The notes below the pieces were generated by a model. It worked only from the letters and a program-made list of their open reading frames with translations. It was not told where the DNA came from and ran no database searches. DNA of 64,000 nt, taken from the NCBI RefSeq assembly GCF_009914755.1, contig NC_060930.1; one strand, given 5' to 3'. The position numbers were made by a program, and so were the translations under genes. Below, in pieces: positions 17,321 to 21,672 of the stretch (position 1 is its first letter; every line of letters begins with the position of its first letter). This DNA comes from the human T2T-CHM13v2.0 reference genome, Homo sapiens.

Positions 17321-17359
17321 GGTGCTTGTGACCCACCTTCCGGAAGGAAGCGGTTAACT

Positions 17360-17619
17360 ATGGCGACCTCCACGGAGCAGTGGGTTCTGGTGGGGATGGT
17401 ACAGGTGCTTTAGGAGGCTCCTGCTTACCATCTTATTTTGGAAGGGATTCTGTTACTCTGGATAATCAGACTTCTTTTCTCTAAGACTTACAAATTACAG
17501 GAACGATCCGATCTTACAGTCAAGGAAAAAGAAGAACTGATTGAAGAGTGGCAACCACAACCTCTTGTTCCTCCTGTCCCAAAAGACCATCCTGCTGTCA
17601 ACTACAACATCGTTTCAGG
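17360..17619 (+). pseudogene. SPTLC1P3: SPTLC1 coding exons 1-3, intron-free, with a nonsense codon at 18
   Basis: [65 protein letters not shown]...NYNIVSG; TAG at 17411-17413 where SPTLC1 has Tyr18; homology stops after 260 coding nt. Confidence 0.93.
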
Positions 17620-17825
17620 ACGGAGTCTTGCTCTGTCACCAGGCTGGAGTGCAGTGGTGCGATCTCGGCTCACTGCAATCTCCACCTCCCAGGTTCAAGC
17701 CATTCTCCTGCCTCAGCCTCCTGAGTAGCTGGGACTACAGGCACAAGCCACCATGCCCGCCTAATTTTTGTATTTTCAGTAGAGACGGAGTTTCACCATG
17801 TTGGCCAGAATGATCTCGATCTCCT
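17620..17825 (-). mobile_element. Exonized AluS, first part (no polyT tail, begins at the splice junction)
   Basis: acggagtcttgctctgtc directly follows ttcagg; breaks at gatctcgatctcct. Confidence 0.92.
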
Positions 17826-18905
17826 TTTTTTTAACTAAAAAGTAAACTTTAATGTTGAAAATGCAAACTTGGGGAAGGCAGAAAGATCACACACAAGGCT
17901 GTCACTTCACACTTCGAAGGTTGCAAAGCAGGCGGGCAGAGGCGCTCCTCACTTCCCAGATGGTGCGGGGGCTGGGCAGAAACGCTCCTCCCTTACAAAC
18001 GGTGAGGGGGCTGGGCAGAGGTGCTCCTCACTTTCCAGACAGGGCGGCGACTGGGCAGAAGCACTCCTCACTTCCCAGATGGGATGGTGGCCAGGCAGAG
18101 GCACTCCTCATTTCCCAGAGAGTGAGGAGGCCCGGCAGAGGCACTCTTCACTTCACAGACAGGACGGCGATGAGGCAGAGGCGCTCCTCATTTCCCAGAC
18201 GGTGAGGAGGCCAGGCAGAGGCACTCCTCACTTCACAGACAGGACGGCGGCAAGGCAGAGGCGCTCCTTACTTCCCAGACAGGGTGGCGGCTGGGCAGAG
18301 GTGCTCCTCACTTCCCATACCGTGAGGCGGCCAGGCAGAGGTGCTCCTCACTTCCCAGAAGGGGTGGAGGCTGGGCAGGCGGTGCTCCTCCTCAATTCCC
18401 AGATGGTGGGCAGCTGGGCAGAGGTGCTCCTCACTTTCCAGACAGGGCAGTGGCCAGGCAGAAACACTCCTCACTTCCCAGAGTGTAAGGGGGCTGGGCA
18501 GAGGCACTCCTCGCTTCGCAGACAGGACGGCAGCTGGGCAGAGGCGCTCCTCACTTCCCAGACAGGGCGGCAGCCTGGCAGAGGCACTCCTCACTGCCCA
18601 GATGGGGCAGGGCCCAGGCAGAGGCGCTCCTCACTTCCCAGACTGTGAGGCGGCTGGGCAGAGGCGCTCGTCACTTCCCAGACAGGGTGGGGGACGGGCA
18701 GAGGCGCTCCTCACTGTCCAGAGGTGCAGTGGCCAGGCAGAGGTGCTCCTCACTTCCCAGACGGTGGAGCAGCTGGGCAGAGGCACTCCTCACTTCCAAG
18801 ACGGTGGGGCAGCTGGGCAGAGGCACTCCTCACTTCCCTGATGGTGGAGCAGCCAGGCAGAGGCGCTCCTCACTTCCCAGATGGTGCAGGCAGAGATTCT
18901 CCTCA
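17826..18905 (-). mobile_element. SVA2-type VNTR element (~24 units of ~40 bp, unique 3' end, polyA)
   Basis: Unit ggcagaggcgctcctcacttcccagacgg; T tail at 17825-17832; minus-strand ATTAAA 17848-17853; degenerate 14-bp TSD at 17812-17825 and 18906-18919; no SINE-R or hexamer. Confidence 0.85.
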
Positions 18906-18988
18906 GGTCTCAATCTCTTGACCTCCTGATCCACCTGCCTGGGCCTCCCAAAGTGCTGGATTACAGGCGTGAGCCACCACGCCTGCCC
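18906..18988 (-). mobile_element. Remainder (5' end) of the split Alu
   Basis: ggtctcaatctcttgacctc...cctcccaaagtgctggattacaggcgtgagccacc. Confidence 0.92.
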
Positions 18989-20212
18989 TGCCGTCTCTTC
19001 TTTCTCCTCCTAAGCAGCTGTCTTAGTCTCCTGAATTTTGATGTTCTACTTAACACCCTCCTGTTCTTATGCATGTTGCCCTGCTGGAGGCGTCCTCCTC
19101 TTTGGGAAGCCTGACCCACCAACAGTGCCTCAGGAGATAGACATGGAAGCTTAGCCGGTGGGGGCCCCTCATCTCTATCCCACCTCAGTTGCAGGGGAGG
19201 GGTCGGTTGCAGCTGCAGCGGTGGCCCCGACAGTTTTCTTTTGCAGGACCTGTGGCTGACAGCTCTGGGTGGAGAAGACCTACTTGATCCAAGAGCTGCA
19301 GGATCCTTGGGCTGCATGTCCTCCCCCAGCATCAGCAAGCATGGAGAGCTGGGCAGGTGGTCTTTACCCAGCACCTTCAAGGCCGCCTTCTCTGGCCACA
19401 GGGAGCAGCCCGGAACTGGGGCAGGGACCACTGTTGGAAGTGGGTCAGGCTTCCCAAAGGGAAGGATGCCTCCAGCAGGGCTGTGTGAACTGGAGACTCC
19501 ATGGCCCTTGGAGTAGAAACTCACTGCATACACCTGGGCCTTGTCAGTCTGGTTCTTTTCTGCCAAGCTGTTGGAGGTGGACATTTCCCTCCAAGGGCCT
19601 GGGATTGTACCAGGAGGAAGTGAGGTTTCCCTGAGTCTCCAGGGGCCCAGAGGTGAAGGCTGCTTCCCCATTGCTACAGGGGCCCCTTTTATTGTCCTTC
19701 TGCCCCTGGGTCTCTACTTGGTATTTCACCTTCGTTGCTTCTTTGGGCTCTTCTGCCCTCACCTCCGTCTTCGGGAGCCTGGCTGGGATCACCTGCTCAT
19801 CTAATGAAGGAAGTTGAAAGTTAAACTTGCCTCTGAGATAAGGGATCCTCACGGGGCTGAGGTGTCCAAACATCATGGAGTTGCAAGCAGACAGCAAGGG
19901 TTTCTTCCTTGAGGGGGAGCTCCAGACCACAGGAGGCAGGACCCTCTGTGGGGTGCCCGTGTTCCGAGGGATAAGACTCAGCCTCATAGGGGCGCCATCC
20001 CACCTGACTGGAAAAGAAGGCCCAAGATGTCGCTGACGGTTGAAGAGGAGTGGGAAACGGCCCAAGATTCCCGGGGCAGGCACAGGTGCAGGAGCAGCAG
20101 GGTGAGCCCGGCCAGCTGGGAAGGCCTCACGGACAAGACGAGCAGGTTGCTGATGGCATGGCCAGGACCTGCGGTGGAACCAGGAACAAAATACACTTAG
20201 TGAGTTGCCCAT
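18961..20212 (-). pseudogene. NPAP1/POM121-related intronless gene copy (UPF0607 type), ~416 aa if repaired, single +1 frameshift
   Basis: Track ORFs 19544-20230 and 18961-19671 join at GNVHL/NSLAEKNQTDK (extra base at 19573-19574); motifs MGNSLS, PAGRAHP, RKKPLLS..FGHLSPVRIP and WDRDEGPPPAKLPCLS recall NPAP1. Confidence 0.82.
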
Positions 20213-20844
20213 TTTGAGCAAGTTGTGCACAGACGAAACTAAGGGTCAGAAGTGGAGAGGATACTCCTAAGTCACCCACTTCTCTGTGGCCGGGTGCACA
20301 CTGGGCATCTGGGAGTTTATGACATCACCATGGGGCTGGTGACAGAGCCAGGGTGTGGAGGAGTGCTTAGGAGCCCAGCGAGGGTGCCTACAAGAGGAGT
20401 CAAAGGGCAAAGGGTGAGACCTTTCCACCGATCCAGCTGGACTCTAGCCTCAGGGACGTCCTGCTCCTGGGGGCAGGTGTGTGGCCCTGGATGGGCCCCC
20501 CTGTGGGGCTGTTGGAGGTGTGGGGCTGATCCGCCAGAGCCCTTCTGCCTGGTGCCTGGTCCAGGTCCTGGCTAGCACCCAGTGGCCCTGTCTTGGCCAG
20601 CCCTGTCCCCCAGGTTACAGGGCCAGAACCTGGAAGCAGAGCGCAGGACCAGCCAGATCCCGCCAGGCTCCCCCTGGGCCTCTCCAGTGCCTCTGTGCTG
20701 CCTGGAGCCAGGCCCGCCTTCTCCATGGCTGCCGTGGCCTCAAGGGCCACCAGCATTGCTCTGCAGGTTTCCAAAGAGGGGACACGGTGCCCTGACCTGA
20801 CTGGATGCGCCTCTTACCACATGCCTCCCTGGCAGGCAGGGTCT

Positions 20845-20950
20845 CCACTTTTTACAAATTTGCCTGAGACCATTCCTCAGGTCATTCAGGTGGTCATGGC
20901 CCAGCCAGGCTTTGAACCCAGGCTGTGTGATTCCACAGCTGGCGCTCTGG
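20845..20950 (-). mobile_element. MIR fragment carried inside the retrocopy
   Basis: ccactttttacaaat...caggtcattcagg...tttgaacccaggctgtgtgattcca. Confidence 0.55.
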
Positions 20951-21606
20951 CCTGTGTGCCTCATGATCATGGATACAGCATCTATTCTTATTTTTTCCTG
21001 TAGTCCTGGGGTACTTAGCACCATGGCATATCTGTAATAAGCACATGCACACCTTGAAGGAGGTCTTCACTTCAACATACAAGTTGACCATGGCATGCTC
21101 TGGGCTCCAGTCCTCTACAAAGATGTAGGGCAGGAACTACCAGTTGTCAGCACAGCACCATGACACATTGCTCTTCTAATGGAGCCTTTCACCCCAGATG
21201 TTCTTTCTCGTCTGATGGGAAGGATCCAAGTATGTAAAGATTATGTTCTAGATCAGCTTTGGTCTGTCCTAAAAGAAATTTGCCAGTGGCTTATTCCATA
21301 TGGATAAAAGTCAGTTTCTCTGGTCTTCCTGGAATGTGTCTAGAAAGCAAATACATTATTTACAAGTTCATAGTAGATCAATGTATTGGATTAAAATATG
21401 ACAAACATAATTTGGTCATTGTGAGCATGCCAGCTCAGTCAACTATTCACCACACATGATGCCCTAAATATAACTCTAGGTTTTCTTATGCCCAAGAGAG
21501 GGACATACTCTTGGGTGTCTGGACTAGGGAAATATGTATGAAAAACCATTTGGCCACTCCACATCTTGTTATTGGAGAATTGAAACCATCTATATTCAAA
21601 GATATT

Positions 21607-21612
21607 ATTAAA
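21607..21612 (+). terminator. ATTAAA polyA signal of the composite transcript, inside an old antisense L1 fragment (~21543-21634)
   Basis: 22 nt upstream of the A tail. Confidence 0.75.
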
Positions 21613-21672
21613 AGGCAAGAAGTTAACTTCTGTCAAAAAAAAAAGTCAAAAGGCTGAGAAAAAATACTTCTT

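What the first reader, a model, noticed from the sequence alone, without database searches (positions are those of the whole stretch)
17321..21640. Hitch-hiker gene cassette: a SPTLC1 retrocopy carries a whole antisense NPAP1-like gene with its upstream region and polyA site
Seen: one TSD pair and one polyA tail enclose spliced SPTLC1 exons 1-3, a split Alu, an SVA2 VNTR and, on the opposite strand, an intronless ~416-codon NPAP1/POM121-like ORF. That ORF has ~1.4 kb of upstream sequence (20213-21634, GC-rich to ~20850) and its own ATTAAA and A tail (17825-17853, minus strand). Known: retrocopies normally lose their promoter. Inference: because the passenger is antisense inside the host's terminal exon, L1 copying moves it as a complete transcription unit. 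This could explain dispersed UPF0607-type copies; I recall one lying at another SPTLC1 pseudogene but have not verified it. The parts are individually catalogued; the coupled mechanism may not be.
Basis: partly seen in the sequence, partly recalled or inferred. Interest (0 to 1): 0.85.

Follow-up and report, generated by a model that had tools for sequence, protein, structure and literature searches.

The report
SPTLC1 retrocopy carrying antisense NPAP1-like fragment
This stretch is one of nine dead retrocopies of an unusual SPTLC1 transcript whose long last exon happens to contain, backwards, the front third of an NPAP1-like gene with its upstream DNA, which explains how that small gene family was scattered over the human genome.

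Summary
The anatomy is real. Window 17321-21644 is a single L1-type retrocopy with a 9-nt target-site duplication and a short A tail. It holds spliced SPTLC1 exons 1-3, joined at a splice junction to a 4-kb terminal exon.

The source lies in chr9, 2.27 kb downstream of SPTLC1 exon 3. There an antisense Alu supplies a T22 tract and an AG acceptor, and an ATTAAA supplies the polyA site.

Nine retrocopies share the same exon3/Alu junction. TSDs are distinct in seven of them and ambiguous in two. They are 95-97% alike and star-like in the tree.

The passenger is not a whole gene with its own polyA site. It is the 5' third of an NPAP1-like gene, cut by the Alu, and its stop codon lies inside the Alu. 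The ATTAAA and A tail belong to an SVA2-type element inserted into that Alu.

In this window the ORF is broken by one extra base at 19573. Five of the nine retrocopies keep 416 codons, but the copies evolve neutrally (pN/pS 1.2). The upstream region is homologous to NPAP1's upstream DNA, is CpG-depleted, and was not tested for promoter activity.

The parts
17312..17320 (.). 5' target-site duplication AAAAGTCAA
   Evidence: Repeated at 21641-21649 directly after the A run.
17321..17416 (+). SPTLC1 exon 1 part (5'UTR and the first codons). Homology to the source begins at 17324. An in-frame TAG at codon 18 disables it.
   Evidence: Matches chr9:104281800-893 at 94%. Source exon ends and donor shown. 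The stop is read directly.
17417..17524 (+). SPTLC1 exon 2
   Evidence: Matches chr9:104278941-9051 at 96%. Intron flanks in the source shown.
17525..17619 (+). SPTLC1 exon 3, ending ...TTTCAGG
   Evidence: Matches chr9:104275227-323 at 98%. In the source it is followed by GTAAAT; in all 9 retrocopies it is followed by ACGGAGTC.
17620..17824 (-). Antisense Alu, 3' part. Its first base is the first base of the exonized terminal exon.
   Evidence: In the source a T22 tract and GAG precede it, giving an AG acceptor. Aligns to Alus elsewhere at 81-88%.
17825..17933 (-). Tail of an SVA2-type element: an A tail (seen as a T run at 17825-32), ATTAAA (17853-17848) and about 100 nt of 3' unique sequence
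   Evidence: 153 genomic candidates, of which 40 were scored at 91-100% identity and 29 lie at loci unrelated to the cassette. Two unrelated copies have their own TSDs and A tails.
17934..18887 (-). SVA2-type VNTR, 40-bp unit, 23.8 copies
   Evidence: TRF. VNTR plus unique length varies from 132 to 1340 nt among the copies. 40/39-bp units are those described for SVA2 (PMC4432496, passages).
18906..18990 (-). Antisense Alu, 5' part. It holds the last codons and the stop of the ORF.
   Evidence: Aligns to Alu positions overlapping the left part by about 14 nt, which is the duplication made by the SVA2-type insertion.
18961..20212 (-). NPAP1-like (UPF0607, POM121-family) ORF remnant, homologous to NPAP1 aa 1-387. 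It is broken by one extra base at 19573.
   Evidence: ORFs of 222 and 236 aa in different frames. Frameshift located. Pfam POM121 scores 26.5 bits here and 77.3 bits on the intact chr13 copy. 39% identity to NPAP1, E 1e-50.
20213..21540 (-). Upstream region carried with the ORF. It is homologous to the DNA upstream of NPAP1's ATG and to older chr9 paralogues. It is GC-rich to about 20850 and CpG-depleted.
   Evidence: Window 20544-20862 and 20874-21537 align to L024 2705-2386 and 2017-1350; the NPAP1 ATG is at L024 3035. GC profile. CpG o/e 0.18.
21541..21634 (+). End of the terminal exon in a dispersed repeat (it looks like an old antisense L1 fragment; that name is my reading). The polyA signal ATTAAA lies at 21607-21612.
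   Evidence: Many 76-81% matches genome-wide to query 2583-2676. The source carries the same ATTAAA and no A run after the cleavage site.
21635..21649 (.). Short A tail (A run 21635-44) and 3' TSD AAAAGTCAA (21641-49)
   Evidence: The source reads TGTCA then TTTTG at this point, so the As are not templated.

Best explanation
Window 17321-21644 is a dead L1-mediated retrocopy of an alternative SPTLC1 mRNA. This part is shown.

In the chr9 source, SPTLC1 exons 1-3 are spliced to a roughly 3.7-kb terminal exon. That exon begins at the AG acceptor of an antisense Alu 2.27 kb into the next intron. It ends at an ATTAAA signal.

The exon runs backwards through a segment that had been duplicated into the intron. 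The segment holds the 5' third of an NPAP1-like (UPF0607) gene and about 1.3 kb of its upstream DNA. The gene is interrupted by the Alu, which is itself split by an SVA2-type element.

Reverse transcription of this mRNA restored the antisense segment as double-stranded DNA at each new site. That produced at least nine dispersed copies in one burst.

Dating is inferred: about 1.1-1.7% non-CpG change per lineage suggests very roughly 15-25 Myr.

Also inferred: the carried units are mostly or wholly non-functional passengers. The copy in this window is disabled in both the SPTLC1 part and the NPAP1-like part.
For: - Source. The three exons lie apart on chr9 minus, with the cassette downstream on the same strand. 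The source has a GT donor after exon 3, a T22+GAG acceptor, and ATTAAA with no genomic A run.
- Copies. 9 of 9 spliced copies carry the identical CAGG|ACGGAGTC junction.
- Independent insertions. TSDs of 9-18 nt are clear in 7 of 9 and ambiguous in 2 of 9 (chr2, chr6_23M). All have A-rich tails. Cleavage points vary within a few nt and 5' ends fall between window-equivalent 17321 and 17345.
- Burst. The 11 young copies are 95.2-97.2% identical pairwise. They form one clade with 100/100 support and an unresolved interior.
- Passenger. NPAP1 homology is interrupted by the Alu and SVA2-type element and resumes on the other side (aa 389-521).
- SVA2-type tail. It is dispersed, with its own TSDs at other loci.
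- Neutral evolution. Pooled pN/pS is 1.20, from 71.5 synonymous and 259.5 nonsynonymous changes. The observed N/S ratio is 3.63 against 2.60 expected under a context model. Indel events number 7 in 13,746 ORF sites and 11 in 15,527 upstream sites.
Against: - No outgroup genome was available, so the empty site here and the age are inferred, not seen.
- The window's TSD is only 9 nt and A-rich, and the A tail is short.
- I did not check that canonical SPTLC1 exon 4 lies beyond the cassette. I also saw no transcript evidence for the Alu-exon isoform apart from the retrocopies themselves.
- Some results lean towards constraint. Five of 11 young lineages keep a 416-codon ORF against about 2.5 expected under my neutral model (P 0.23 per lineage); I ran no formal test. 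Four stops were seen against 8.1 expected.
- The older chr9:100.01M copy keeps a 498-aa ORF, and all its indels are multiples of three.
- pN/pS near 1 is weak evidence in a family that Neumann et al. report as positively selected (abstract).
Confidence: 0.88

Rival explanations
1. One reading: the passenger travels as a working transcription unit. Its carried NPAP1-type upstream region drives minus-strand transcription in the copies, the SVA2 ATTAAA ends the transcript, and some copies encode a functional UPF0607 protein.
For: - The upstream 1.3 kb is conserved with the DNA upstream of NPAP1's ATG (71-77% identity) and with older chr9 paralogues.
- Five of 9 retrocopies keep 416 codons, and a sixth keeps 407.
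- There are fewer stops than the neutral model expects (4 against 8.1).
- The intact ORF is a good POM121-family match (77.3 bits).
Against: - pN/pS is 1.20 among the copies and 1.21 against the older chr9:100.01M copy.
- Substitution density is higher in the ORF (2.41%) than upstream (1.75%).
- The upstream region is not a CpG island, and its CpG transitions run at 14.8% per lineage against 12.9% in the ORF.
- The ORF in the source itself is now broken at codon 130, as is the one in this window.
- The gene is a 3'-truncated fragment ending in an Alu.
- No expression data were seen. Searches for UPF0607 and FLJ37424 gave nothing on expression.
Confidence: 0.18
2. A single ancestral retrocopy, or a fused DNA locus, was spread by segmental DNA duplication rather than by repeated retrotransposition.
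For: Segmental duplication does act on this sequence. chr9:94.58M is an unspliced 10.6-kb copy that includes exon 3 (94.7% identity), and chr9:100.01M is a 6.7-kb copy (88-91%).
Against: - Each of the nine spliced copies ends exactly at the mRNA limits.
- Seven have different TSDs.
- They have different 5' flanks, A-rich tails of different form, and slightly different cleavage points.
Confidence: 0.03
3. The exon3/Alu join was made by L1 reverse-transcriptase template switching between two RNAs, or by two separate insertions at one site, and not by splicing.
For: Chimeric retrocopies made by template switching are known; this rests on my own knowledge and was not checked here.
Against: - The join uses the exact GT donor of exon 3.
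- It also uses a canonical polypyrimidine-AG acceptor 2.27 kb downstream in the same intron on the same strand.
- It recurs identically in 9 of 9 independent insertions.
- One TSD pair encloses the whole unit.
Confidence: 0.02

Closest known systems
PMCHL1: retroposition of an antisense PMCH (AROM) mRNA (PMC2621205; abstract and passages read)
   Same: An RNA transcribed across a gene on the opposite strand was retroposed. The new locus therefore holds part of that gene in genomic, antisense-to-carrier form.
   Different: - Here the carrier is a spliced alternative isoform of a housekeeping gene.
- The passenger includes the 5' end of the gene and 1.3 kb of upstream DNA.
- The event recurred at least nine times.
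Gene duplication by SVA or L1 3' transduction, for example the AMAC1 family (review passage in PMC9917352; details of the original study are recalled, not read)
   Same: A retrotransposition-competent RNA reads into neighbouring DNA and scatters that DNA, here a gene-bearing segment, to several chromosomes.
   Different: - The carrier here is a cellular mRNA, not a retroelement.
- The passenger lies antisense inside the terminal exon, not downstream of an element.
Ordinary processed pseudogenes and Alu exonization
   Same: - Spliced exons, a polyA tail and TSDs are present.
- An antisense Alu provides a T tract and AG acceptor for a new terminal exon.
   Different: All nine SPTLC1 retrocopies that hold exons 1-3 derive from the Alu-exon isoform. 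None derives from the canonical mRNA (13 of 13 candidates scored).
UPF0607 / NPAP1 / NPAP1L family (Neumann et al. 2014, PMC3942032; abstract and passages read)
   Same: The carried ORF belongs to this POM121-derived, intronless, primate-restricted group. The paper places the ancestral paralogues on chr9.
   Different: The paper attributes UPF0607 copies to duplication in a subset of primates. Its main text contains no occurrence of SPTLC1, Alu or SVA. Its supplementary table S2 was not read.

Membership tests
L1-mediated processed retrocopy | Introns of the parent gene are removed at the parent's own splice sites. | tested here: met
   The three exons lie 2.7-3.6 kb apart in the source and are contiguous here. 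Donors and the acceptor were read in the source.
L1-mediated processed retrocopy | A non-templated A tail follows a polyA signal. | tested here: met
   ATTAAA lies at 21607-12 and the A run at 21635-44. The source has no A run at that point. The tail here is short.
L1-mediated processed retrocopy | Target-site duplication flanks the whole insert. | tested here: met
   A 9-nt TSD here. TSDs are clear in 7 of 9 copies and ambiguous in 2 of 9. No empty site was seen because no outgroup genome was available.
POM121 / NPAP1 / UPF0607 family (Pfam PF15229) | The Pfam POM121 model scores above its gathering score. | tested here: inconclusive
   The window's 222-aa fragment scores 26.5 bits against a cut-off of 27. 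The intact 416-aa chr13 copy, 96.8% identical in DNA, scores 77.3 bits.
POM121 / NPAP1 / UPF0607 family (Pfam PF15229) | Collinear homology to NPAP1 from the start codon. | tested here: met
   39% identity over 420 aligned positions, NPAP1 aa 1-387, E 1e-50. tblastn of NPAP1 against the window gives E 2.6e-39.
SVA2-type VNTR retroelement | A VNTR of 40/39-bp units followed by a 3' unique sequence and an A tail, dispersed with TSDs. | tested here: met
   40-bp unit, 23.8 copies. The 3' unique sequence has 153 candidates, of which 40 were scored at 91-100%. TSDs and tails were seen at two unrelated loci. Of those two loci, one shows a 40-bp VNTR and the other, a 5'-truncated copy, shows none. 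The family description comes from passages of PMC4432496. No comparison with a reference SVA2 sequence was possible.
Alu exonization (terminal exon) | An antisense Alu whose T tract serves as polypyrimidine tract, with an AG acceptor used in the mRNA. | tested here: met
   The source reads T22 GAG|ACGGAG, and the join falls exactly there in 9 of 9 retrocopies. Direct RNA evidence was not available.
Functional retro-duplicated gene (promoter-carrying transcription unit) | An open reading frame in this copy. | tested here: not met
   A frameshift at 19573.
Functional retro-duplicated gene (promoter-carrying transcription unit) | Purifying selection on the coding sequence. | tested here: not met
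   pN/pS is 1.20 pooled over 11 lineages. The N/S ratio is 3.63 observed against 2.60 neutral.
Functional retro-duplicated gene (promoter-carrying transcription unit) | Promoter activity of the carried upstream DNA. | not testable with these tools
   Only indirect evidence: homology to NPAP1 upstream DNA, CpG o/e of 0.18-0.34, and fast CpG decay.

The most novel reading that the evidence does not exclude
The SPTLC1 Alu-exon transcript acted as a natural shuttle that copied an NPAP1-type promoter together with its ORF to nine chromosomal sites. Several of these copies (the five with intact 416-codon ORFs on chr1, chr2, chr8, chr10 and chr13) would then be transcribed from the carried promoter in testis or brain. 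This would be a recurrent case of RNA-mediated gene duplication that keeps the promoter because the gene rides antisense in its carrier.
Probability: 0.18. Interest if true: 0.7.

Novelty: new variant of a known kind. Interest (0 to 1): 0.5.

Why it matters
The finding gives a concrete, sequence-verified account of how the primate UPF0607 (NPAP1-like) copies came to lie on many chromosomes, each beside an SPTLC1 pseudogene. RefSeq lists the two as separate pseudogenes.

It also illustrates a general point. Sequence lying antisense in a long terminal exon is copied by retroposition with its upstream DNA, and with introns if it had any. Retroposition can therefore duplicate a promoter-bearing unit.

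This matters for retrocopy and pseudogene annotation, where one insertion is currently counted as two genes. It also matters for studies of NPAP1-family evolution.

It does not by itself show any function. This copy is dead and the family looks neutral.

Tried and rejected
- Outgroup primate genomes are not held, so presence/absence dating could not be done.
- Bacterial promoter scans were not used because they do not apply here.
- The literature searches found no paper linking the two genes:
  - UPF0607: 3 papers.
  - SPTLC1P: 14 papers in a listing, all gene lists or disease studies by title.
  - SPTLC1 + NPAP1: 1 paper, a TCGA gene list by title, not read.
  - SPTLC1 + retrocop + pseudogene: 0 papers.
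  - FLJ37424: 0 papers.
  - A five-term search on retrocopy, antisense, nested gene and related words: 25 papers, 15 listed.
- Passages of two retrocopy papers (PMC5470649, PMC2584115) did not describe an antisense passenger gene. The library does not cover most subscription journals.
- My ATG-motif search missed the chr2 start. Searches showed that chr2 is intact.
- I asked whether the intact ORFs prove selection and rejected this as not significant under a context-dependent neutral model.
- I asked whether chr9:100.01M derives from the SPTLC1 intron or the reverse. chr9:100.01M keeps NPAP1 homology to aa 671, beyond the shared boundary. That favours it as the older locus, but a deletion in the intron is not excluded.
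Full report
**What is in the window.**

Reading 17200-21800 shows the following, in order:
- AAAAGTCAA at 17312-17320.
- SPTLC1 5'UTR and coding sequence from 17321/17324 to 17619.
- An antisense Alu from 17620.
- A T run (17825-32) and a minus-strand ATTAAA (17853-17848).
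- A 40-bp VNTR of 23.8 copies at 17934-18887.
- The rest of the Alu (18906-18990).
- A minus-strand NPAP1-like coding region (18961-20212).
- 1.4 kb of further sequence ending in ATTAAA (21607-12).
- An A run (21635-44) and AAAAGTCAA again (21641-49).

The SPTLC1 part has an in-frame TAG at codon 18. The minus-strand ORF is not open. It appears as 222 aa (20212-19544) and 236 aa (19671-18961) in different frames, because of one extra base at 19573. GC is 0.62-0.66 between 20250 and 20850 and falls to 0.36-0.48 beyond.

**The source.**

The window's own genome is held (T2T human; the window is chr6:64356001-64420000). A search with the SPTLC1 part gave 13 matches, with all 13 candidates scored:
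- Nine contiguous matches including the window: chr1, chr2, chr6 twice, chr8, chr9:28.16M, chr10, chr13 and chr16.
- Three separate exon matches on chr9 minus, at 104,281,800-893, 104,278,941-9,051 and 104,275,227-323.
- One exon-3-only match at chr9:94.58M.

A search with 18959-21634 gave 73 matches (74 candidates, 40 scored). Eleven of them were near full length at 95-100% identity. These are the same nine sites plus chr9:104.27M (minus) and chr9:94.58M.

In the chr9:104.27M locus, exon 3 is followed by GTAAAT. The cassette begins 2.27 kb further on, where a run of 22 T and GAG precede ACGGAG. It ends at ATTAAA followed by TGTCA and TTTTG, with no A run. The cassette is therefore a terminal exon created by an antisense Alu acceptor, and the A tails of the copies are post-transcriptional. 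I did not check where canonical exon 4 lies.

**Nine independent retrocopies.**

All 9 of 9 spliced copies carry the same CAGG|ACGGAGTC junction. The source and chr9:94.58M instead show the intron at that point.

Flanks differ between the copies:
- TSDs are clear in 7 of 9: the window 9 nt, chr13 about 18, chr10 17, chr1 about 14, chr8 14, chr9:28.16M 16, chr16 about 12.
- TSDs are ambiguous in 2 of 9 (chr2 and chr6:23.7M).
- 5' ends fall between window-equivalent 17321 and 17345, with four copies starting at 17345.
- Cleavage points vary by a few bases, and every copy has an A-rich tail.

The 11 young copies are 95.2-97.2% identical pairwise. They form one clade with 100/100 support and an essentially unresolved interior; 7 of 10 inner branches are open. 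This points to a burst from one master.

Non-CpG change per lineage is about 1.1-1.7%. With a recalled neutral rate near 1e-9 per site per year, that suggests very roughly 15-25 Myr. This is an inference and no outgroup was available.

Other copies on chr9 and chr8:
- chr9:94.58M is an unspliced 10.6-kb DNA duplicate that includes exon 3 (94.7% identity).
- chr9:100.01M is an older 6.7-kb DNA duplicate (88-91%).
- chr8:36.6M is an older (about 89%) 5'-truncated copy ending in an A-rich tail at the same polyA site.

**What the passenger is.**

The intact 416-aa form (chr13 copy) matches Pfam POM121 at 77.3 bits (cut-off 27). It aligns to NPAP1 aa 1-387 at 39% identity, E 1e-50. The window's 222-aa fragment scores 26.5 bits.

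NPAP1's ORF starts at L024 3035. Window 20544-20862 and 20874-21537 align to L024 2705-2386 and 2017-1350. So the carried 'upstream' DNA is homologous to the roughly 1.7 kb upstream of NPAP1's start codon. Older chr9 paralogues share the same outer limit near 21500-21548.

The last 90 nt of the cassette, which hold the polyA signal, are a different dispersed repeat. I read it as an old antisense L1 fragment, but no tool named it.

In the source, NPAP1 homology resumes on the other side of the Alu. NPAP1 aa 389-521 (L024 nt 4198-4637, 75% identity) lie between exon 3 and the acceptor. The Alu therefore interrupts an NPAP1-like gene. The retrocopies carry only its 5' third, and the ORF's last codons and stop lie in the Alu. 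chr9:100.01M keeps homology to NPAP1 aa 671, beyond the duplication boundary, which suggests it is the older locus.

**The 'own polyA site'.**

The 110 nt at 17826-17935 have 153 genomic candidates. Forty were scored, all at 91-100% identity. Eleven of those belong to the cassette copies and 29 lie elsewhere.

I inspected two unrelated copies. Each ends in an A tail and is flanked by its own TSD of 13 nt and about 11 nt. One has a 40-bp VNTR. The other, a 5'-truncated copy, has none.

In the cassette, the two Alu pieces overlap by about 12-14 Alu positions, which is the duplication made by this insertion. This fits the SVA2 elements described as 40/39-bp repeat units plus a 3' unique sequence, present in macaque and gibbon (PMC4432496, passages). 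The signal is thus a retroelement's tail that happens to lie downstream of the ORF on the same strand.

**Is the carried unit functional?**

ORF state among the nine retrocopies:
- 416 codons are open in 5 of 9: chr13, chr2, chr10, chr1 and chr8.
- 407 codons are open in chr9:28.16M.
- The frame is broken in the window, chr6:23.7M and chr16.

The frame is also broken in the source (130 aa) and in chr9:94.58M (58 aa).

I compared each of the 11 young copies with a majority-rule ancestor:
- The ORF has 331 changes in 13,746 sites (2.41%) and 7 indel events. The upstream region has 271 changes in 15,527 sites (1.75%) and 11 indel events.
- Pooled synonymous changes are 71.5 and nonsynonymous 259.5, giving pN/pS 1.20. 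Four stops were gained.
- Under a model using CpG and non-CpG rates from the upstream region, the neutral N/S ratio is 2.60 (observed 3.63) and the expected stops are 8.1 (observed 4). The chance that a lineage stays intact is 0.23, or about 2.5 of 11 expected against 5 seen. I ran no formal test.
- CpG transitions run at 12.9% per lineage in the ORF and 14.8% upstream, against 0.7-0.9% for other transitions.
- CpG o/e in 20213-20900 is 0.18 in the window and 0.34 in the inferred ancestor. The region is GC-rich but is not a CpG island, and it behaves as germline-methylated DNA.
- Against the older chr9:100.01M copy, dN/dS is 1.21. All indels there are multiples of three, and that copy keeps a 498-aa ORF with a 63-nt in-frame tandem repeat at its N terminus.

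Overall the copies look neutral. The evidence is not strong enough to exclude weak or frame-only constraint, because the family is reported as fast-evolving (PMC3942032, abstract).

**Comparison with what is known.**

UPF0607 is described as a primate-restricted sister group of NPAP1, with duplication in a subset of primates. The main text of that paper has no occurrence of SPTLC1, Alu or SVA, and I did not read its supplement.

The searches listed under Tried and rejected found no paper linking SPTLC1 retrocopies with NPAP1 or UPF0607.

The closest precedents are:
- PMCHL1, made by retroposition of an antisense PMCH mRNA (PMC2621205).
- Gene families spread by SVA 3' transduction, such as AMAC1 (review passage).

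The present case differs in three ways. The carrier is a spliced isoform of a cellular gene. The passenger includes the 5' end of the gene and its upstream DNA. The event recurred nine times.

**Verdict.**

The dispersal mechanism is shown as far as one genome allows. The statements 'whole gene', 'own polyA site' and 'complete transcription unit' are respectively wrong, wrong and untested. This copy is a dead pseudogene.

Noticed in passing
whole genome: All nine SPTLC1 retrocopies that contain exons 1-3 derive from the Alu-exon isoform. No canonical SPTLC1 processed pseudogene holding these exons was found (13 of 13 candidates scored). Why this isoform was so retroposition-prone is unexplained.
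   Followed up: partly
L020 2820-3140 (chr9:100.01M): The older duplicate has a 63-nt (21-codon) in-frame tandem repeat, adding about five extra units at the N terminus of the NPAP1-like ORF. This gives an intact 498-aa ORF. The old chr8:36.6M retrocopy shares the expansion; the young copies have one unit.
   Followed up: partly
L013 (chr8:27.29M) versus the other copies: The SVA2-type VNTR plus unique part varies from 132 nt (chr8, almost wholly deleted) to 1340 nt (chr10) among copies of one burst. This shows large post-insertion VNTR length change.
   Followed up: no
L021 (chr8:36.6M): An older (about 89%) 5'-truncated copy of the same cassette ends in an A-rich tail at the same ATTAAA site. 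It also has an internal deletion (window-equivalent 19153-19808). This implies that the polyA site was used well before the main burst.
   Followed up: partly
L020 about 260-590 (chr9:100.01M): A further Alu in the opposite orientation sits in the A tail of the SVA2-type element in this older duplicate only.
   Followed up: no
window 21650-21800: The DNA directly 3' of the insertion looks like the 3' part of an L1 element (my reading, and the hub lists 21626-23777 as masked). The retrocopy appears to have landed at the edge of an L1.
   Followed up: no
L022, L023, L025 (chr9:99.98M, 92.52M, 92.02M): Older NPAP1-like paralogues (72-79% identity) share the same outer limit of homology near window-equivalent 21500-21548. 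The two at 92.0M and 92.5M lie in opposite orientations, as the NPAP1L pseudogenes described by Neumann et al. do.
   Followed up: no
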